Shown here in pieces: positions 3,159 through 64,000 of a DNA stretch of 64,000 bases. The translations under genes were made by a program, and so were the position numbers. This DNA is from an uncultured Candidatus Saccharibacteria bacterium. GTDB lineage: Bacteria; Patescibacteriota; Minisyncoccia; Portnoybacterales; UBA2143. Position 1 is the first letter of the stretch. Each line of letters starts with the position of its first letter. The stretch lies in the NCBI GenBank assembly GCA_964629675.1, contig CAZVUG010000016.1, forward strand, positions 43-64,042, read 5' to 3'. The notes under the pieces were generated by a model. That model was given only the letters and a program-made list of their open reading frames with translations, had not been told where the DNA came from and did not search any database.

Positions 3159-4367
3159 TTAATTATTTAAGCGAGCAAAAATTTTCTTTTGCATCTCTTC
3201 AGCAATTTTATCCCAATTATATTTTTCAAATGCTAAATGGCGAGCGGTTTGAGTAATTTTCTTAACTTCTTCCGGATGAGATATAATATATTTTACTGCA
3301 TTTGCTATTTGTTCTGGATTATTTTTATCTACCACCCAGCCAGTCGTCGGCTTATCTGGGTTTTTTTGAGCATCAAAAAGAAATTCTTTTATTCCTCCTT
3401 CATGAGTGCCAATCACAGGAAGATTAGCTGCCATAGCTGAAATAAAAGAAATGCCTAATCCTTCTGAACGGCTAGGGCGAACAAATATATCAGATATCCT
3501 TCTATACTTTGGCGTTTCTGTCCGATCAACTTGACCAATAAATTTAACTCTTTGCTCTACTTTTAATTTAGAGGCTAAATTTCTAAGATTTTGCTCTTCC
3601 GGACCTCCGCCGACTACGAGAAAATAAACAAAAGGAGGTAAAAAAGTTAGCGCTTTAATAACATCATCAACAGCATTTTTGTCAACAAGCCTTGATGTAG
3701 TGACAAGATAAAGATCCCCTTCTTGTTTGCCGACTTTTTTCTTTAATTCCGCTAATTCTTCTTCGCTGTAAATATCTTTAAAATCTCTTTCATTAGCTCC
3801 ATTATAAATAATTTCTAAGGGTCCTCGAAAACCGCGTTTTCTTGCCCACTGGCTTAAATATCCCGAAATAGCTTGAATTACATCCGCTTTAGTAAAAGCT
3901 CTAGTAAATAAAGGCCAAAGCGGCCGGACAGTCCGTTCAATACTTTTAATAGGATCTCCTTCCTGCAATGTCAAAATATAAAAAATGCGCGGGTAGAATA
4001 TTTTAAAGATAGCTGCCGGAACTCCGCAAGAATGGGCCATCATTGCCCAAATCCCCTGGTATTGATTATGACGGTGAAGCTTAATTGCTTTCCAAGCAGC
4101 CGAAAATTGAAAAAGATATTTATTAAGAGAAAGAGGAAATCTTTGCAAGTCTTCAATTGCCGGATTATTTTTACTAAAGCCAATTCGGTGCACAGTAACA
4201 TTGCCAATTTTTTCAACTTTAGGCAAACTTGCGTCAAAACGAAGGGTAATCATATGAAATTCATAATCATTCGGATTAATTCTATCAGTAACTTCTTTAA
4301 TGGACACTTCGGCGCCACCAATAAATTTTGGATAATAAACAAGTGAAAAAATTAAGATTTTCTTCAT
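3159..4367 (-). CDS. Group-1 (GT4-like) glycosyltransferase
   Basis: 402 aa. N-terminal GGAEV motif (YYPKFIGGAEV) and C-terminal RPSRSEGLGISFISAMAANLPVIGT...G, typical of GT4 enzymes. Confidence 0.8.
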   Translation of the reverse strand: MKKILIFSLVYYPKFIGGAEVSIKEVTDRINPNDYEFHMITLRFDASLPKVEKIGNVTVHRIGFSKNNPAIEDLQRFPLSLNKYLFQFSAAWKAIKLHRHNQYQGIWAMMAHSCGVPAAIFKIFYPRIFYILTLQEGDPIKSIERTVRPLWPLFTRAFTKADVIQAISGYLSQWARKRGFRGPLEIIYNGANERDFKDIYSEEELAELKKKVGKQEGDLYLVTTSRLVDKNAVDDVIKALTFLPPFVYFLVVGGGPEEQNLRNLASKLKVEQRVKFIGQVDRTETPKYRRISDIFVRPSRSEGLGISFISAMAANLPVIGTHEGGIKEFLFDAQKNPDKPTTGWVVDKNNPEQIANAVKYIISHPEEVKKITQTARHLAFEKYNWDKIAEEMQKKIFARLNN

Positions 4368-9746: not shown

Positions 9747-10013
9747 CTATTCTACTTTATAAACTTCATCACCTTCCCTTACTTGTTGATCTACTTTTAA
9801 GCCAATCATTTGTCCTTTTTTAGCTGATTCTACATTTTCATGCTCTATCTGCATCGAATCAACATTTTGTTCAAAATCACTGTTTACACCTCTAACATGT
9901 ATTTTATCGTTCACTTTTAATAAACCTTGATTAATTTTAATCACCGCTACGCCAATATTAGTAAAATAGTGGGTTACTTCACCAATTAGTTTTTCTTCTG
10001 CCATTTTTTTCAC
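9747..10013 (-). CDS. Small beta-barrel protein resembling EF-Tu domain II (translation elongation factor-like)
   Basis: 88 aa. Pattern GEVTHYFTNIGVAVIKI...GDKIHVRG...GQMIGLKV...GDEVYK resembles the EF-Tu domain-2 barrel. TAG stop. Confidence 0.45.
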   Translation of the reverse strand: MKKMAEEKLIGEVTHYFTNIGVAVIKINQGLLKVNDKIHVRGVNSDFEQNVDSMQIEHENVESAKKGQMIGLKVDQQVREGDEVYKVE

Positions 10014-10057
10014 CCCCTTTCAGTTAAATAAACTTGATTTTGAATCTGCTCAATTTG

Positions 10058-10129
10058 TAGCCCCACGGGGAGTCGAACCCCGGTTACCAGCTTGAGAAGC
10101 TGACGTCCTAACCACTAGACGATAGGGCC
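10058..10129 (-). tRNA. tRNA-Glu (anticodon CUC)
   Basis: The reverse complement folds as a cloverleaf: acceptor GGCCCUA/UGGGGCU, anticodon loop UUCUCAA, T-loop GGTTCGACTCC. CCA is not encoded. Confidence 0.9.
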
Positions 10130-10170
10130 TTTTCTTTTAATTTAACACAAAAACACCCTTTTTGTCTATA

Positions 10171-11460
10171 TTAAGACTGCACTAATAACTTATCTGCTTT
10201 TTGCGGCTTTCCCATTATTTCTTTAACTATTTTCTCCAAATGCATAACTCGAGAACCTTTAATCAAAATAATATCTCCTTTTTTAATCTTTTTTTGAACT
10301 TTTAAGCCAGCCTCATCTGCCTGAGAAAAGGAAAAGATCTTTTCTTGCGGAAAACCATTTTTTTGCGCTTCATCTGCTATAAATCTAGCTCTGTCACCTA
10401 TAGTGAAAAGCATATCTAAAATAGCTGCTGCTTTTTTGCCAACTGCCCGATGACCTTCTTCAGTGTATTGGCCTAATTCCATCATATCTCCCAAAACAGC
10501 TATTTTCTTGCCTCCTTCTAAAGAAATGCCTTCTAAAATTTCTAAAGCAGCTATTGTTGCCAGAGGAGAAGCATTATAGCTATCATCAATAATCCAAGTC
10601 TTTTTAATGCCTTCAATTAAATTAGCTCTTCCTGGCAAAGATCGATATTTTTTAAGAGCTGAAGCAATATTAACTAAATTCATGCCAAAATTTAATCCGA
10701 CAGCCGCTCCGGCAGTTGCTGCAAAAGCATATTGTTTGCATAAAATTCTTTCCAGCTTTATTGGAACAATACTTCCTTTGTGCTCTAATTTAAAATTCAA
10801 GCTAAAATCCTTATCATTTAATCTTGAAATTGGCAAGGGGTTATTAATAAAATCAGGCCAATTTATAATCTGCAGATCTGCTCCTTCTCCAAAACCATAA
10901 TAAAAAGAACCTATTCCGTCAGGTAATTCATCCCCAATCATTCTTACTGTTAAATCATCGTAATTCAAAATAGCTAACCCGCCTTTTGGTAATTTTTTGA
11001 CTAACTGGGCTTTCTCTTCCGTAAGCTTGCCTTTTTCTGGAAAAAATTCTATATGAGAGGGAAATTCTCCAATAGCTGTAATTATTCCTATTTTAACGGG
11101 AACAAAACTTAAGAGATACTTCATGTCGCCTGGCCGGTCAATGCCCATTTCCAAAACTAAAATACGCGGATATTTTTTTCTAAATAAAATTAAACTAATT
11201 GCTTTGACAAAAACTTTTAGCCAGCCGTAAAAAGATTTTCCGCCTGTTTGGCTGCCAATAATAGTTAGCGGAACACCAATTTGATTGTTATAGTTTTTTA
11301 AATTTCGCCTAACTTTAAATTGTTTTTTCAAAACTCTGTAAATTGCTTCTTTAGTGCTTGTTTTGCCAACACTGCCAGTAATACCAATAATTTCTGGCTG
11401 GTACTTCCAGATTATCATTTGCGAAAAAACTTTTAAGATATATTGTAAAATTTTAAGCAT
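10171..11460 (-). CDS. murF: UDP-N-acetylmuramoyl-tripeptide--D-alanyl-D-alanine ligase
   Basis: Mur ligase P-loop GITGSVGKTSTKE and a DDSYNASP motif. Positioned in the dcw cluster downstream of ftsI. Confidence 0.9.
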   Translation of the reverse strand: MLKILQYILKVFSQMIIWKYQPEIIGITGSVGKTSTKEAIYRVLKKQFKVRRNLKNYNNQIGVPLTIIGSQTGGKSFYGWLKVFVKAISLILFRKKYPRILVLEMGIDRPGDMKYLLSFVPVKIGIITAIGEFPSHIEFFPEKGKLTEEKAQLVKKLPKGGLAILNYDDLTVRMIGDELPDGIGSFYYGFGEGADLQIINWPDFINNPLPISRLNDKDFSLNFKLEHKGSIVPIKLERILCKQYAFAATAGAAVGLNFGMNLVNIASALKKYRSLPGRANLIEGIKKTWIIDDSYNASPLATIAALEILEGISLEGGKKIAVLGDMMELGQYTEEGHRAVGKKAAAILDMLFTIGDRARFIADEAQKNGFPQEKIFSFSQADEAGLKVQKKIKKGDIILIKGSRVMHLEKIVKEIMGKPQKADKLLVQS

Positions 11461-55710: not shown

Positions 55711-56778
55711 TCAAGCATTATGCTTAATTTCGATAACATCTCCGTCACGAACAACATAATCCCGCCCCTCAGTCCTAATTAAGCCTTTCTCTCTAGCTTG
55801 AGCGAAACCGCCAGCTCTCAAAAGATCTTCGCAGCTAATAACATCAGCTTTAATAAAATGAGATTCGAAATCGCTATGGATTGTTCCGCCAGCCTGCGGA
55901 GCTTTTTCGCCCTTGCGCAAAGTCCAAGCTCTTGTTTCATCAGAGCCAGTTGTTAAAAAAGTAATCAGATTAAGCAAGGAATAAGATTCTTTAATCAATT
56001 TATCTATTTTTAAATCCTGCGGCAAATCAAATTCTTTTCTTTCTTCCGGACTAAGCTCGGTAGAATCAAATTCTGATAAAACATCAAGGATTAAAAAAGA
56101 TAAATTATTTTTTTTGAATTCTTCAATTATTTCTGGAGAAATTTCTTCTTCTTTGCCGTTAAGTAAATAAAGCCTAGGCTTAAAAGTTAATAATTGGTAG
56201 CTGTTAAGTATCTGTCTTTCTTTTTCTTCCCAATCTTCGTTAGCCAGAATTTCTCCTTTTTGCAAAAACTGGCAAGCTTTTTTTAAAACTTCTAGTTCTT
56301 TAACAGCTTCTTTGCTGCCTGATTTAGATTCTTTTGTTAAATCAAGAATTCTTTTTTCTAAAGTTGCCAGATCTTTTAGAGCCATCTCTGTTTCTAAAAT
56401 TTCTTTGTTTTTAATTGGATCTATCTCTGATTCAGTATTGATAATCTGATTATTTTGAAAACAGCGCAAAACATAGACAATGATGCTAACTTCCCTAATA
56501 TTTGCCAAAAATTTATTCCCCAGACCTTCTCCCTGGCTAGCCCCTTTAACTAAACCAGCAATATCAACAAAGTCTATAGTTGTATAGATTTTTTTAGCCG
56601 AATTAGTTAATTCAGCCAGCTGGTCAACTCTTTTATCCGGGACAGCCACTACGCCAATATTAGGATCAATAGTGCAAAAAGGATAATTTTGGCGGTCAAC
56701 TTGTTTTCTCGTGATAGCTTGAAATAAAGTTGATTTGCCGACATTTGGCAAACCGACTATTCCGATCGAAAGATGCAT
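55711..56778 (-). CDS. ychF: Ribosome-binding ATPase YchF (Obg-like)
   Basis: G1 motif GIVGLPNVGKSTLF, DIAGLVKGAS, and a C-terminal TGS domain (FIKADV...). Confidence 0.92.
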   Translation of the reverse strand: MHLSIGIVGLPNVGKSTLFQAITRKQVDRQNYPFCTIDPNIGVVAVPDKRVDQLAELTNSAKKIYTTIDFVDIAGLVKGASQGEGLGNKFLANIREVSIIVYVLRCFQNNQIINTESEIDPIKNKEILETEMALKDLATLEKRILDLTKESKSGSKEAVKELEVLKKACQFLQKGEILANEDWEEKERQILNSYQLLTFKPRLYLLNGKEEEISPEIIEEFKKNNLSFLILDVLSEFDSTELSPEERKEFDLPQDLKIDKLIKESYSLLNLITFLTTGSDETRAWTLRKGEKAPQAGGTIHSDFESHFIKADVISCEDLLRAGGFAQAREKGLIRTEGRDYVVRDGDVIEIKHNA

Positions 56779-58873: not shown

Positions 58874-59695
58874 TTAATTAATTTCGTAAGTGATATTAAC
58901 TGTCATTTCTATTTTATTCTCGCCGGTTTCTACCTGAGAAGCTTCTTCAATTCCGCCAGCACTCATAATATCGTAAGATGATTTTGCTAGGTTGTAAATA
59001 GACGGTCTTGAGCTAGATTCGTTAAAATTAACAATTCTGACTAAATCAATTCCTAATTGAGAAGCTAATTCTTTTGCTTTTTCTGTTGCTTCATTAATTG
59101 CTTTCTCTCTGGCTTGTTTTTCAAATTCATCCTGATTATCAATGGTGAATTGCAAATTTCCAATTTGATTAGCGCCAGCATTAGCCGCTTCTCTGATAAT
59201 TTCTCCAATCTGCTCCATATTTCTAATTTTAACCTGCAAAGACTGGCTTACTTCATAACCAACTAAAACTCTTCGCGAATTATCTTTTGTGATTAATTCA
59301 TCATGCCATTCATAGCGAGGATAAATATTAAAATTAAGCGTTTTTAGATCTTTCTCGTCAATTCCTTCGTTTTTCAAGGAATTAATAATTTCGTTCATTT
59401 TCTTTGTATTTTCACTCATGGCTTCAGCGACTGTTTTCGCTTCATTCTCAATTGCAAAATTAATTATAGCTAAATCAGGCTTGGCGTAAACTTCGCCAGT
59501 TCCTGAAACTGAAATAGTGTTTTTTGACTCAATTTCCTGGCCAATATATTTCCCTTCTTTTATTTTGTTCTGAATGCTAACACCAAAGAATAAGATAAGA
59601 ACGACAAAAAAGGCGCCAATAATGACCAAGAAAATATTTTTTTCATTCTGATTAATTTTTTTCAAACTTTGATTATCCATATTGTTAAAATTCAT
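58874..59695 (-). CDS. SIMPL/DUF541 family periplasmic-type protein
   Basis: N-terminal TM segment. ISVSGTGEVYAKPDLAIINFAIE...GYEVSQSLQVKIRN is the family pattern. Confidence 0.75.
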   Translation of the reverse strand: MNFNNMDNQSLKKINQNEKNIFLVIIGAFFVVLILFFGVSIQNKIKEGKYIGQEIESKNTISVSGTGEVYAKPDLAIINFAIENEAKTVAEAMSENTKKMNEIINSLKNEGIDEKDLKTLNFNIYPRYEWHDELITKDNSRRVLVGYEVSQSLQVKIRNMEQIGEIIREAANAGANQIGNLQFTIDNQDEFEKQAREKAINEATEKAKELASQLGIDLVRIVNFNESSSRPSIYNLAKSSYDIMSAGGIEEASQVETGENKIEMTVNITYEIN

Positions 59696-60131
59696 TATTA
59701 TTATCGACCTTTTTATTAGATAAAATCATATACGCAGTCCCAACCGCACCAATAATAAAAGCTATTGGAGAGACCAAAACAGCAAATAGGAAAAAGATAA
59801 CATGCATAATTTCAAAGAAATAATTTAAGAAGAAAAAGCTTCTTGTTATGACAGCTAATCCATAGAAAAGATTATGAAAAATAATTCCGACAAGAAAACT
59901 TGCGGCAGAAATACCAGTTATCAGCAATCTTCTTCGCAAAGAAAGATTTTTTTCTTTTTTTAAGGCAAAATAGATTAAAGCAATTCCTAAAAGGAAAAAC
60001 ATAATAAAAGGAACTAAAAATAATTCAGATCCTTTAACTAGATTTCTAATTGGCACAATAAAAACCTGGCCAACGACAAACAGGAAGATTAGAATTAAAG
60101 CTTCAAAAATTAATTTAGCAGATTTATCCAT
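59685..60131 (-). CDS. Integral membrane protein, unknown function
   Basis: 148 aa with four hydrophobic segments. Confidence 0.5.
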   Translation of the reverse strand: MDKSAKLIFEALILIFLFVVGQVFIVPIRNLVKGSELFLVPFIMFFLLGIALIYFALKKEKNLSLRRRLLITGISAASFLVGIIFHNLFYGLAVITRSFFFLNYFFEIMHVIFFLFAVLVSPIAFIIGAVGTAYMILSNKKVDNNNEF

Positions 60132-60437: not shown

Positions 60438-60464
60438 ACCGCCATTCTATTTTAAAATGGCGGT
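60438..60464 (-). terminator. Intrinsic terminator after the PEP-CTERM gene
   Basis: 9-bp stem ACCGCCATT/AATGGCGGT, then ATTTTTA on the minus strand. Confidence 0.55.
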
Positions 60465-60477
60465 TTTAAATTAATAA

Positions 60478-61267
60478 TCAATTTTTTCTCCTTATTTTTC
60501 TTCGGAAACCGGCGAAAGCTAATAAGCCCGATCCCAACAAAAACATTGTTGCTGGCTCAGGTACAGGAGCAGCCGAGCCTTCAATAACATCATTAGCGCA
60601 TGTCGCTGTACCCCAAACTAATCTCATTGACGCATCCAGATCATCTTCCCAGAATCCAGTTTCAATACTAATTCTATAGTCAGGAGAACCTCCAGGAAGA
60701 GAATTCCAAGTAACTTTCCCGCCTGGTAAACAGTCATAGCCATAATTATTACCTAAAGAACTTATTCTTACCGGAACGTCATGATTGTAACTATATGATC
60801 CAGGAGACGGATCAAAATCATCTGAAGTTAGATAGTTACCAACGGCATAGAGGCCTCCGGCAAAAAAAGTTCCATGATTTATTAAAGGAATTGCCCAAAG
60901 GTATTCATTCCCATAGAAATTCTCATACATGAAAAGATCGGCCGGCTCAGTTATCCAGCTTGCCGACAGTAACTCCTGATTGCGGATAGTCGGTATATAA
61001 ATCAAAGATGATATTGCCGCTGTTATGTCCTGGGGTAAAGTTCTTAATGTCAATGCCATAGCCTTCAAAACCTGTTCCAATCTGATCTCCAATTGGATCA
61101 TTTATGCTATATGCCATAACCGTTCCACTTATTAAAAAAGGAAATAATAAGATAGAAATAAATAGTATTTTTTTCATCAAAGACACTCCTTTCGCATAAG
61201 CCTTAGTTGTTTCTTCCATTATTATGGCAGCTAATAAGACAACTATAAATAATATCTTCTTTCCCAT
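60478..61267 (-). pseudogene. PEP-CTERM-anchored secreted protein, interrupted by a frameshift
   Basis: Two overlapping ORFs (61267-60947 and 61101-60478). The upstream ORF encodes signal peptide(s) and ends ...SGVTVGKLDN*. The downstream frame continues ...SWITEPADLF... and ends with VPEPATMFLLGSGLLAFAGFRRKIRRKN, i.e. PEP motif, TM segment and Arg-rich tail. A best start at ATG 61177 is preceded by AAGGAG. Confidence 0.7.
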
Positions 61268-61343: not shown

Positions 61344-61372
61344 ATCATAAATCTTTAAAATTATTCTGTCAA
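61344..61372 (-). promoter_or_regulatory. Promoter of the PEP-CTERM gene
   Basis: Minus strand: TTGACA (61372-67), 17 nt, TATGAT (61349-44). Confidence 0.55.
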
Positions 61373-61442: not shown

Positions 61443-61577
61443 TTAAATTCCTAAATACTTAGCTAAGTATTTATCCGGATCTGATCTCATTAAATTTGGA
61501 ATATATTTAGTATATTCCGAGACAGTTCCGTTTTGCAAAGAAACAGCGACAAGATTTAAGAAATGAGCAATAAACAT
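61443..61577 (-). CDS. 44-aa ORF downstream of the riboswitch-like leader
   Basis: MFIAHFLNLVAVSLQNGTVSEYTKYIPNLMRSDPDKYLAKYLGI*. AGGAGG lies 4 nt upstream of the ATG. Not in the ORF track (under 60 aa). Confidence 0.5.
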   Translation of the reverse strand: MFIAHFLNLVAVSLQNGTVSEYTKYIPNLMRSDPDKYLAKYLGI

Positions 61578-61610
61578 AATTCCTCCTTTTAAAATTTAGA
61601 AATTAAAGAA

Positions 61611-61800
61611 CAAAAAATCCCTCTTTGAGGGAATAAAAAAATATTAATACTCTCAAGCCTCGAAGAGATAATACTTAAAAGAAAATAATTAAGCGACCTG
61701 GCTTATTTCTTGCCCTTAGGCAAAAACATCACAGTTGCGGGTCAGCCGAGGATTCTCACCTCAGTTCGTTAATCATTATCTGCTTATTTTAAAATTACTT
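61611..61800 (-). promoter_or_regulatory. Cobalamin-riboswitch-like leader with terminator expression platform
   Basis: Minus-strand core GAACUGAGGUGAGAAUCCUCGGCUGACCCGCAACUGUGA closely parallels the conserved cobalamin aptamer core (GGUGnGAAUCC...GCnGnCCCGCnACUGUGA). Further elements: a closing helix AUUAACGA/UCGCUUAAU, a small hairpin UUGCC-UAAG-GGCAA, an AAGCCAGG B12-box-like element, and terminator UCCCUC-AAA-GAGGGA plus U6 (61632-61612). Confidence 0.6.
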
Positions 61801-62518: not shown

Positions 62519-64000
62519 TTAAAAAGGAAAGATTTCTCGCCAATTAATAATCCAGCTGCCCTCTGCTAGATGTATTTGTTTAGTACACAAGCAAGGACCG
62601 CAACCATAACCATCAGTTACACTTAAGGTAACATTGTAATATCCTTCTGCAGGTACTGTCGAAAAAGTATGCGTTACTTCTTCTCCACTTTCTGCCGGCG
62701 AACCATCGCCAAAATCCCAACTACGTATTCTCGGATCAGGACCGCTATCATGAAAAGTACTTTTATCTCTAAAAGTAATTGGTTCTCCTGTTTCAAACTC
62801 TGGTATTTGACAATCTTCTTCTATCCCCCCAACGATACAAACAAAATCAGGTTCTGGCCAAATATGCTCTTCTGTTGTAAAAGTACTAGGACCATTATAG
62901 AAAGCAGATTCTCCGCTATAGCTATCCCAAACTTTTAAACGCCAATAATAATCTGTACTTCCTAATTGAATACCGCTTCCTTCAGGTAAGCTATGGAAAT
63001 AAGAAGTATTACCTGAAGTACAAGTATTAACTCCTAACCCATTATTGCAACTATCCCAAGTAATTGGATTATTAAAACCGTTTTCATCATCTATTTGTAA
63101 TTGATAAGATTCTTGATAATCTCCACCAGTAAAATCTATATCATCGTCTTTAAATTCCCAGGGAAAAACATACCCAAAAACATTATCACAACCATTAGTT
63201 AAAACAGGATTATCAAGTTCAGCAGTTGGTAAACGGTTTTCAACAGTCAAAGAATAAATATCCGTTTCATAAGAATTATCCCTTTTATCAATTGCCTGAA
63301 CTTTATATTCAATAACTGTATTAGGTTCATAAGAACCAATATTGATTGAGCAGCTAGTCGTATTGCAAACTTTTGTCTGCCAGTTAGTTTCCCCGGCTAA
63401 GCGATAATTAATAATCTGAGAATCCAATCCGCTTTGATTAGGATCTTGATCATTTGCTAAAGAACATAAAGTAATTTCATTATTATTATAAATATCTCCG
63501 CTATAAGCATCGATACAATTGCCAGTAATTGATTTCCAAACAGAAATTTCTGGCGGAGTTGTGTCAACAAAATAATTTAATTCCCAATAATCTAATGAAG
63601 GCGTTGATGAAGGGGTAGTTGTCAATAATTTTGCTTTAATTTTAAGCGAACGATGAGTTTCTGGATCAATACCTGATATATTAAATGAATGAGTTTGATT
63701 TTCACCTACAGAACTATGATCATAAGAACGAATAACTGAAATTTGATTATCAGTCTCGCCATCTAGGATATAATAAGCAATGTCTGTATTTTGATAAATG
63801 TTTTCTTTAATCACTAAATTATTCCAAGAAAGGATTTTAGAAGAAGCAAATCCAGGAATTGGCTCAATTTTAACGCTAGTTACCATACCTTCAGCACTTG
63901 CTGCATTAATACCGATTTCAAAACCATTATAATAATGAACTCCTCCGGTACCTACTCCTTCAAAATCATCTATTTCTAAAATATCATTTGGAACAACTAT
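62519..64000 (-). CDS. Large secreted/surface protein with PKD-like domain(s); 5' end lies outside the window
   Basis: The reading frame stays open from 63886 to the window edge (my translation ...IVVPNDILEIDDFEGVGTGG...). The C-terminal region has PKD signature WDFGDGS...H.F...G.Y.V.L.V.D. Cys-rich. Confidence 0.7.
   Translation of the reverse strand: MVVPNDILEIDDFEGVGTGGVHYYNGFEIGINAASAEGMVTSVKIEPIPGFASSKILSWNNLVIKENIYQNTDIAYYILDGETDNQISVIRSYDHSSVGENQTHSFNISGIDPETHRSLKIKAKLLTTTPSSTPSLDYWELNYFVDTTPPEISVWKSITGNCIDAYSGDIYNNNEITLCSLANDQDPNQSGLDSQIINYRLAGETNWQTKVCNTTSCSINIGSYEPNTVIEYKVQAIDKRDNSYETDIYSLTVENRLPTAELDNPVLTNGCDNVFGYVFPWEFKDDDIDFTGGDYQESYQLQIDDENGFNNPITWDSCNNGLGVNTCTSGNTSYFHSLPEGSGIQLGSTDYYWRLKVWDSYSGESAFYNGPSTFTTEEHIWPEPDFVCIVGGIEEDCQIPEFETGEPITFRDKSTFHDSGPDPRIRSWDFGDGSPAESGEEVTHTFSTVPAEGYYNVTLSVTDGYGCGPCLCTKQIHLAEGSWIINWREIFPF

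What the first reader, a model, noticed from the sequence alone, without database searches (positions are those of the whole stretch)
60478..61267. Frameshifted, GC-shifted PEP-CTERM surface protein in a genome that otherwise looks monoderm and CPR-like
Seen:
- The C-terminus VPEPATMFLLGSGLLAFAGFRRKIRRKN is a textbook PEP-CTERM sorting signal: PEP motif, hydrophobic helix and Arg-rich tail.
- The gene is split into two frames with the switch near 60960-60975. Frame A ends ...GVTVGKLDN*. Frame B continues ...SWITEPADLF....
- There is no homopolymer run at the shift.
- A hand-counted 130-nt sample gives about 45% GC against about 31% for core genes.
- The 5' end carries a tandem duplication of the start region. 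Two similar SD-ATG-signal-peptide units begin at 61267 and 61177 (..GTGTCTaATGGGAAAGAAGATATTATTTAT.. and ..GTGTCTttgATGAAAAAAATACTATTTAT..).

Established knowledge: PEP-CTERM proteins are processed by exosortases and are typical of diderm, EPS-producing bacteria. None of that machinery is in this window.

Inference: the gene was probably acquired horizontally and is now decaying. Alternatively the frameshift is an assembly error and the organism has an exosortase-like system, which would be notable for this lineage. Its position next to a B12-riboswitch unit raises the speculative possibility of a surface cobalamin-scavenging role.
Basis: partly seen in the sequence, partly recalled or inferred. 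Interest (0 to 1): 0.55.

Follow-up and report, generated by a model that had tools for sequence, protein, structure and literature searches.

The report
Frameshifted PEP-CTERM surface-protein gene in Parcubacteria
A gene for a small secreted surface protein with a PEP-CTERM sorting tail has been broken by a real one-base insertion in a candidate-phyla-radiation (CPR) bacterium; the broken gene is ordinary, but intact relatives are common in this supposedly outer-membrane-less group and no processing enzyme for them has been found.

Summary
On the minus strand, two overlapping ORFs (60947-61267 and 60478-61101) are halves of one ~232-aa gene. It encodes a signal peptide, a ~180-aa beta-sandwich and a PEP-CTERM tail that passes both curated HMM cut-offs.

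Alignment with about 90 intact homologs pins the break to one codon (60958-60961, GGC-AAGC-TGG, one extra base, no repeat). The same lesion appears in NCBI, JGI and Logan assemblies and in a second allele, so it is not an assembly error. No other locus examined is split, so it is not programmed recoding.

The organism is Parcubacteria/Paceibacterota. The closest homologs (54-63% identity) are intact genes in other Patescibacteria-labelled assembled genomes (MAGs). More distant ones sit 2-9 kb from exosortase genes in Omnitrophota, Planctomycetes and Acidobacteria.

The GC excess is 39% against 34%, not 45% against 31%. It lies in codon positions 1-2; GC3 is normal (z = +1.0). The B12 riboswitch is a separate unit.

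No exosortase was found in the window or near any close-clade homolog, and whole genomes could not be searched.

Verdict: a recently inactivated copy of a laterally mobile, uncurated PEP-CTERM family. The gene itself is of low interest. The open question of how CPR bacteria process PEP-CTERM tails is moderately interesting.

The parts
61344..61372 (-). Sigma-70-type promoter-like site (TTGACA, 17 nt, TATGAT; 11 of 12 matches) that gives the gene its own transcription start.
61178..61267 (-). Upstream in-frame SD-ATG unit encoding a signal-peptide-like segment (MGKKILFIVVLLAAIIMEETTKAYAKGVSL). It resembles the true start 90 nt downstream only weakly. No homolog has it.
61112..61177 (-). Family-type start and Sec signal peptide (MKKILFISILLFPFLISGTVMA). 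The mature protein would begin YSINDP.
   Evidence: Alignment with homologs; N-terminal helix in the AF2 model of the homolog. The cleavage site is inferred.
60947..61267 (-). Frame-A ORF (106 aa). It is homologous to the family through ...GVTVG, then reads KLDN-TGA out of frame.
60958..60961 (-). Frameshift site. AAGC lies between the Gly codon (GGC) and the Trp codon (TGG), where homologs have one codon. This is a one-base insertion with no repeat.
60478..60957 (-). Frame-B continuation (W74 to the stop codon): the remainder of the beta-sandwich domain, with the conserved WGTATCAND motif, plus the sorting tail. There are no further stops or indels.
60481..60567 (-). PEP-CTERM sorting signal: PVPEP motif, hydrophobic helix and RRKIRRKN tail.
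60438..60464 (-). Intrinsic-terminator-like hairpin (12 pairs) followed by a T-rich tail (ATTTTTATTG), ending the monocistronic unit.

Best explanation
This is a recently inactivated (pseudogenised) copy of a ~230-aa secreted surface protein, in a Parcubacteria/Paceibacterota genome. The family has no curated model apart from its sorting tail.

Intact relatives have three parts:
- a Sec signal peptide;
- a ~180-aa beta-sandwich with conserved acidic residues and a WGTATCAND motif;
- a PEP-CTERM tail.

How the intact protein most likely works (inferred):
1. It is exported through Sec.
2. It is held in the cytoplasmic membrane by the C-terminal helix, with the basic tail inside the cell.
3. An exosortase-type transpeptidase cleaves or transfers it at the PEP motif.

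In Omnitrophota, Planctomycetes and Acidobacteria relatives the exosortase gene lies 2-9 kb away. In Patescibacteria the partner is unidentified.

In this lineage, a single-base insertion between the Gly72 and Trp74 codons stops translation after 76 family-start residues. The promoter, SD, terminator and the rest of the reading frame are still intact, so the event is recent. No functional full-length product is expected.
For: - PEP-CTERM HMMs are above their cut-offs.
- 93 homologs were found. They are mostly about 230 aa with a PF07589 hit, and some carry Patescibacteria, Falkowbacteria or Moranbacteria labels.
- The break maps to one codon by alignment.
- The same lesion is in L006 (100% identical) and L001 (7 substitutions), and in NCBI, JGI and Logan records.
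- Only the window, L001 and L006 are split over two frames; the other full-length matches among about 105 loci are single-frame.
- Each allele has a private change at a conserved site.
- The gene has its own promoter and terminator.
- The organism is Parcubacteria: the best named YchF hits are 78% identical, and all but two of the named top hits carry CPR names.
- GC3 is host-like.
- AF2 models give a beta-sandwich at pLDDT 90.3 and 85.7.
- Exosortases lie beside distant homologs.
- PVPEP is 100% conserved in the Patescibacteria-labelled/low-GC set. The 21-aa signal is 71% identical against 57% for the mature domain.
Against: - No reads were available, so heterogeneity in the population cannot be excluded.
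- No exosortase was found in 64 kb or within 10 kb of any close-clade homolog. The processing step in Patescibacteria is therefore pure inference.
- The biochemical role of the beta-sandwich is unknown. There is no Pfam or NCBIfam match outside the tail. A PDB sequence search found nothing. Foldseek against PDB gave no hit below E = 0.04.
- All 7 substitutions between the alleles are nonsynonymous, but that is not significantly different from neutral expectation. I estimate about 0.15 from an assumed nonsynonymous fraction of about 0.76; this was not run as a tool calculation.
Confidence: 0.8

Rival explanations
1. The frameshift is an assembly or sequencing artefact and the gene is intact and functional in the cell.
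For: A single-base indel is the commonest kind of consensus error, and the rest of the gene is undamaged.
Against: - The same base is present in a Logan assembly of SRR1179191 and in a JGI contig from another sample that differs at 7 other positions.
- It is also in the NCBI and JGI/IMG contigs.
- The site has no homopolymer.
Confidence: 0.04
2. A programmed +1 ribosomal frameshift, or translation under another genetic code, produces the full-length protein.
For: - The downstream frame is open and conserved.
- Frame A ends in TGA 10 nt after the site.
- A +1 slip at AAC-UGA would restore a protein of exactly the family length (sequence reading).
Against: - There is no slippery codon: tRNA re-pairing fails at GGC-A and at AAC-U (reasoned from the sequence).
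- The other full-length homologs examined are in a single frame, so nothing is conserved.
- Reading TGA as Gly gives ...LDNGAGRSFHV-stop and does not rejoin the homology.
- Slipping at the stop would also replace the nearly invariant Trp74.
Confidence: 0.03
3. The gene was imported recently from a diderm donor, was never functional in this exosortase-less cell, and is decaying.
For: - The family is patchy and compositionally discordant in several genomes.
- It is absent near YchF/SIMPL in the nearest long-contig relative.
- Only one PEP-CTERM-like tail and no exosortase occur in 64 kb.
- Haft et al. 2006 found PEP-CTERM only in outer-membrane bacteria, usually in many copies per genome (PMC1569441).
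Against: - The window copy has host-like GC3 (z = +1.0), as do the Falkowbacteria (+0.2) and Paceibacterota (-1.3) copies.
- The closest relatives are intact genes in Patescibacteria-labelled MAGs.
- The closest diderm copies (Desulfobacterota, 51-52% identity) are themselves compositionally foreign to their hosts (z = -2.1 to -9.6).
- A Moranbacteria-type subclade keeps the gene at a syntenic site in two genomes.
Confidence: 0.2
4. The split gene still works as two products: a short secreted N-terminal peptide, and a 150-aa fragment restarted at ATG 60930 (MYENFY...).
For: JGI and Logan gene callers predict exactly these two ORFs. The ATG lies 17 nt after the frame-A stop codon.
Against: - The restart has no SD sequence.
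- The fragment lacks a signal peptide, so its tail would be on the wrong side of the membrane.
- The beta-sandwich is cut through its core (model).
- No homolog is organised this way.
Confidence: 0.03

Closest known systems
PEP-CTERM / exosortase (EpsH, XrtA) protein-sorting system (Haft et al. 2006, PMC1569441)
   Same: - The C-terminal signal passes TIGR02595 and PF07589.
- It has the PEP motif, a hydrophobic helix and a basic tail, and the protein has an N-terminal signal peptide.
- Distant family members lie in arrays of PEP-CTERM genes 2-9 kb from an exosortase gene.
   Different: - The host is a Parcubacteria genome, a group generally regarded as lacking an outer membrane.
- The gene is solitary in 64 kb, and no exosortase or EPS locus is in the window or near close homologs.
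- This copy is frameshifted.
PGF-CTERM / archaeosortase A of monoderm archaea (reviewed in PMC6098224, a paper listed but not read here; details from my own knowledge)
   Same: It offers a precedent, from my own knowledge, for an exosortase-family enzyme processing a tripartite C-terminal signal in a cell with one membrane and an S-layer. This is a plausible model for what a Patescibacteria cell might do.
   Different: The motif differs (PGF rather than PEP). No archaeosortase-like gene was found here. This is a resemblance by analogy only and was not tested.
ZepA, a small cyanobacterial PEP-CTERM exoprotein for zinc uptake (PMC10957091)
   Same: It has the same architecture and size class: a signal peptide, a compact mature domain predicted with high confidence, and a PEP-CTERM tail.
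   Different: - ZepA is defined by zinc-binding histidines and zinc-related neighbours. This family has only one nearly invariant His, and conserved Asp/Asn/Trp and a single Cys instead.
VPLPA-CTERM variant signal (TIGR03370, exosortase XrtD)
   Same: A Moranbacteria-type subclade of the family has VP[ILV]P in place of VPEP. TIGR03370 gives weak hits to 31 of 64 members.
   Different: The scores are below the curated cut-off. The window copy has the canonical VPEP.

Membership tests
PEP-CTERM sorting domain proteins (TIGR02595 / PF07589) | The C-terminal domain scores above the curated HMM cut-off. | tested here: met
   27.1 bits against a cut-off of 16; 33.4 bits against 20.7.
PEP-CTERM sorting domain proteins (TIGR02595 / PF07589) | Tripartite tail at the extreme C-terminus (P-E-P, hydrophobic helix, basic cluster), plus an N-terminal signal peptide. 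| tested here: met
   The tail reads PVPEP-ATMFLLGSGLLAFAGF-RRKIRRKN-stop. The N-terminus MKKILFISILLFPFLISGTVMA is in frame A. The homolog model has terminal helices. No dedicated signal-peptide predictor was run.
PEP-CTERM / exosortase system | An exosortase (EpsH-family) gene in the same genome. | tested here: inconclusive
   None was found in the 64-kb window (NCBIfam or Pfam scans of the membrane proteins; six-frame HMM search).
PEP-CTERM / exosortase system | Several PEP-CTERM paralogs per genome (median 8 in Haft et al. 2006). | tested here: inconclusive
   Only one PEP-CTERM-like tail occurs in the window, and Patescibacteria-like loci have solitary copies. Omnitrophota and Planctomycetes loci have 3-8.
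PEP-CTERM / exosortase system | The host has an outer membrane and an EPS locus. | not testable with these tools
   The host is Parcubacteria by its YchF relatives. The envelope type rests on general knowledge of CPR bacteria. No EPS locus was seen among the window proteins that were scanned.
Functional protein-coding gene | An uninterrupted reading frame collinear with homologs. | tested here: not met
   A one-base insertion at 60958-60961 puts the two halves in different frames.
Programmed +1 frameshift genes (prfB type) | A slippery site, and the frame break conserved in orthologs. | tested here: not met
   There is no slippery codon. The other full-length homologs are in a single frame.
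Diversity-generating retroelement target | A template repeat matching the variable region. | tested here: not met
   No second copy of 60560-60960 exists in the window (best chance match 14 nt).
AdoCbl-riboswitch regulon | The gene is in the transcript controlled by the riboswitch, and the linkage recurs in homologs. | tested here: not met
   Two terminator-like hairpins and a separate promoter lie between them. None of 11 homolog loci has the riboswitch.

The most novel reading that the evidence does not exclude
Patescibacteria (CPR) bacteria, which are thought to have a single membrane, maintain and use PEP-CTERM sorting. If so, they must carry either an exosortase-family enzyme encoded far from its solitary substrate gene, or an unrecognised sortase. 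PEP-CTERM sorting would then not be restricted to outer-membrane, EPS-producing bacteria.

Two observations keep this open. In Patescibacteria-labelled/low-GC copies the signal is more conserved than the globular domain (PVPEP 100%; signal 71% against 57%). One subclade has switched coherently to VP[ILV]P.
Probability: 0.35. Interest if true: 0.6.

Novelty: new member of a known kind. Interest (0 to 1): 0.3.

Why it matters
The broken gene by itself is routine gene decay. The family around it is more interesting. It is a compact, confidently folded beta-sandwich with no curated family and no solved relative, and it carries a textbook PEP-CTERM tail.

It is found intact in many Patescibacteria-labelled MAGs and appears to be exchanged with Desulfobacterota. 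The founding description of PEP-CTERM tied it to outer membranes, EPS loci and many paralogs per genome.

If CPR bacteria really process these tails, that would mean one of two things:
- the exosortase paradigm extends to a monoderm-type bacterial envelope, as archaeosortases did for archaea;
- an unknown sortase exists.

It would also give a surface protein to study in host attachment of these episymbionts. No open-access paper retrieved links exosortases to Patescibacteria. The single paper that mentions both PEP-CTERM and CPR was not read.

Tried and rejected
- **DGR target.** Five of the 7 allele differences cluster in 25 nt (60716-60740), but there is no template repeat in the window.
- **Programmed frameshift or code 25.** Rejected from the sequence and from the single-frame homologs.
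- **Riboswitch control or a B12 role.** The two are separate units, and no riboswitch occurs in 11 homolog loci.
- **The 148-aa membrane protein (59685-60131) as a mini-sortase.** It has no Cys and no family hit. It is unrelated to a 158-aa membrane protein near the L014 homolog.
- **An exosortase near Patescibacteria homologs.** None was found within 10 kb in the Patescibacteria-like loci examined, nor in any locus of the close clade.
- **Literature.** No paper holds both 'exosortase' and 'Patescibacteria', or both 'exosortase' and 'monoderm'. The supplements of Meheust et al. 2019 contain no mention of exosortase.
- **Haft et al. 2012 (PMC3256604).** Not held in the library.
- **The orphan 44-aa ORF.** It has no homolog.

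Full report
**What is there**

On the minus strand, two overlapping ORFs together make one gene. They are 60947-61267 (106 aa) and 60478-61101 (207 aa).

The C-terminal 25 residues pass both curated PEP-CTERM models. TIGR02595 scores 27.1 bits against a cut-off of 16. PF07589 scores 33.4 bits against 20.7.

I joined the two frames conceptually and searched the joined protein. This returned 93 homologs, mostly about 230 aa. The ones examined at the DNA level are uninterrupted, and most carry PF07589.

In the alignment, frame A matches the family up to ...GVTVG. Frame B matches from the nearly invariant Trp onward (consensus TVGxWxTxPADLF). The break therefore lies inside one codon. At window 60958-60961, AAGC stands where relatives have three bases. 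This is a one-base insertion. The longest run at the site is AA, so there is no repeat to slip on.

**Is the lesion real?**

- A Logan assembly of SRR1179191 (L006) is 100% identical to the window over about 1.5 kb, including the extra base.
- A 1-kb JGI contig from another sample (L001) differs at 7 positions and has the same extra base.
- The 106-aa frame-A product is on record from NCBI, JGI/IMG and Logan sources, on contigs up to 66.5 kb.

An assembly error is therefore very unlikely.

A tblastn search of about 105 related loci found only the window, L001 and L006 split over two frames. The break is therefore lineage-specific, not conserved recoding. There is no slippery codon. Reading the TGA as sense does not rejoin the homology.

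Each allele also has one private change at a site conserved in at least 85% of close relatives. These are P180L in the window and G146D in L001. This fits relaxed constraint. All 7 substitutions between the alleles are nonsynonymous, but that is not statistically distinctive.

The gene has its own promoter-like site (61372-61344, 11 of 12 matches) and its own terminator-like hairpin (60464-60438). There are no further stops or indels. The inactivation is therefore recent.

**The host**

The window's YchF (55711-56778) has its best named relatives at 78% identity in a 'Parcubacteria group bacterium'. All but two of the other named top hits are Parcubacteria, Paceibacterota, Nealsonbacteria or Minisyncoccales; the exceptions are labelled 'Firmicutes bacterium ML8_F2' and 'bacterium'. 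The CPR assignment is sound.

**Composition**

The window is 33.7% GC. The gene is 39.1%, and its frame-B part is 41.7%. About 6% of 700-nt windows are as GC-rich.

The excess lies in codon positions 1-2 (z = +2.0). The protein is 12% Gly and rich in Pro, Ser and Thr. GC3 is 0.297 against 0.261 +/- 0.036 for 58 window ORFs (z = +1.0). The window copy is therefore not compositionally foreign.

Across the family, the gene stays at about 41-56% GC whatever the host:

| Loci | GC3 z-score of the gene against host ORFs |
|---|---|
| Several low-GC Patescibacteria-like loci | +2.7 to +6.7 |
| Desulfobacterota loci | -2.1 to -9.6 |
| Omnitrophota and Acidobacteria (L015, L022, L024) | -0.7 to +0.3 |
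| Falkowbacteria | +0.2 |
| Paceibacterota (L014) | -1.3 |

This points to repeated lateral exchange within the close clade. Low- or mid-GC genomes are its likely home.

**Distribution and context**

A genome scan found the family in Patescibacteria-labelled MAGs: L008 at 63% identity, L010 at 54% and L014. L009 (62%) is labelled only 'Bacterium' and has 38% GC. The scan also found the family in Desulfuromonadales, Thermodesulfobacteriota, Acidobacteria, Planctomycetes and Omnitrophota.

A neighbour-joining tree puts the window gene with L008/P0003 and L009/P0002. Desulfobacterota sequences are interleaved in the same broad clade.

A profile search of 1.84 billion cluster representatives found 197 clusters at E <= 1e-30.

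In Omnitrophota, Planctomycetes and Acidobacteria loci, the family member sits in arrays of 2-8 PEP-CTERM genes, with a bona fide exosortase 2-9 kb away. I built an HMM from ten of these exosortases. It finds nothing in the window or in any locus of the close clade, whether Patescibacteria-like or Desulfobacterota.

NCBIfam or Pfam scans covered all but one of the window proteins with three or more predicted membrane helices, and none is an exosortase. The one left unscanned (3159-4367) was covered only by the six-frame HMM search. Only one PEP-CTERM-like tail occurs in the 64 kb.

The nearest relative with a long contig (YchF 78% identical) has no such gene within 10 kb of YchF/SIMPL. Two Moranbacteria-type genomes keep a homolog at a syntenic site after AlaRS. 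Their signal reads VP[ILV]P instead of VPEP.

**The signal is under constraint**

In eight Patescibacteria-labelled or low-GC sequences, PVPEP is invariant. The 21-residue signal is 71% identical, against 57% for the mature domain. The same pattern holds in diderm sets.

This argues for recognition by an enzyme. A second possibility is arrivals too recent for the signal to drift. I could not search whole Patescibacteria genomes, so the partner remains unknown.

**The domain**

AlphaFold models of an intact homolog are confident. The full protein gives pLDDT 90.3 and pTM 0.84. The trimmed domain gives 85.7 and 0.85. Both show a beta-sandwich between the signal-peptide helix and the tail helix.

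No Pfam or NCBIfam model covers the domain. It has no PDB sequence relative. Foldseek against PDB gives no match better than E = 0.04 and TM 0.34. The other structure libraries were unavailable.

Conserved Asp, Asn and Trp residues and the WGTATCAND motif hint at a binding surface. I cannot name a ligand.

**The other claims**

The upstream unit at 61267 is in frame and resembles a signal peptide. It matches the true start only weakly: 63 of 99 aligned columns are identical, and the local score is 29 against 16.0 +/- 2.6 in shuffles. No homolog has it.

The AdoCbl riboswitch (61639-61794, 61.6 bits) is followed by three elements:
- its own terminator (61632-61618);
- an orphan 44-aa ORF with no homolog anywhere;
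- a second hairpin with a U-tract.

The PEP-CTERM gene's own promoter comes only after these. None of 11 homolog loci has the riboswitch. The adjacency is incidental.

**Verdict**

This is a real, recent pseudogene of a laterally mobile, uncurated PEP-CTERM beta-sandwich family. The family is otherwise intact in many Patescibacteria-labelled MAGs.

The founding paper tied PEP-CTERM to outer membranes, EPS loci and many paralogs per genome (PMC1569441). I found no open-access paper that links exosortases to Patescibacteria. The only paper mentioning both PEP-CTERM and CPR was not read. The gene itself is ordinary. How CPR bacteria handle such tails is the part worth a whole-genome follow-up.

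Noticed in passing
window 61443-61794 (- strand): An AdoCbl riboswitch (61.6 bits) with its own terminator controls only a 44-aa ORF. That ORF has no homolog among 5.8 billion proteins and no Pfam hit. A second hairpin with a U-tract follows it. This may be a stranded riboswitch or the remnant of a lost B12-related gene.
   Followed up: partly
window 60716-60740, compared with L001 501-525: Five of the seven differences between the two frameshifted alleles fall within 25 nt. They lie in a variable loop (NNYGYDCLPGGK against NNYDYGCLSDGT) and all are nonsynonymous. This looks like a recombination patch or a multi-base event. No template repeat was found in the window.
   Followed up: partly
L016 about 9950-10486 (deltaproteobacterial MAG, 513-kb contig): A 5'-truncated copy of the family begins exactly at Trp74, the same residue as the frameshift site here. 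The sequence upstream of it belongs to an unrelated zinc-ribbon ORF.
   Followed up: partly
L106 8381-9079 and L107 10001-10741 (Moranbacteria-type contigs): A subclade of about ten proteins has VP[ILV]P instead of VPEP in the sorting signal. In both genomes examined it keeps the synteny DUF8128, TrwB-like ATPase, MnmA, a 102-aa gene, AlaRS, then the family gene. The coherent change suggests a different cognate enzyme.
   Followed up: partly
L012, L013, L018, L045 (Desulfobacterota) against L004, L007-L010, L039: The homolog's GC3 is far below the host's in Desulfobacterota (z down to -9.6). It is above the host's in several low-GC Patescibacteria-like contigs (z up to +6.7). This suggests gene flow between these groups.
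   Followed up: partly
L020-L025, L027, L028 (Omnitrophota and Planctomycetes): In these loci the family member sits in arrays of 2-8 tandem PEP-CTERM genes. An XrtA-like exosortase lies about 2-8 kb from the family gene, and in most of them a conserved unassigned 6-7-helix membrane protein of about 275-313 aa lies just downstream of the array.
   Followed up: partly
L004 2932-4429 and L039 11227-12724: A complete 16S rRNA gene lies about 530 nt downstream of the homolog P0012. It could be used to classify that organism.
   Followed up: no
window 62519-63886 (- strand): A large secreted-looking protein with a C-terminal PKD domain and very low GC3 (0.18) lies just upstream of the FKBP gene and the riboswitch. 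It may be another surface protein of this organism. In L006 the gene is called at 524 aa from the contig edge.
   Followed up: no
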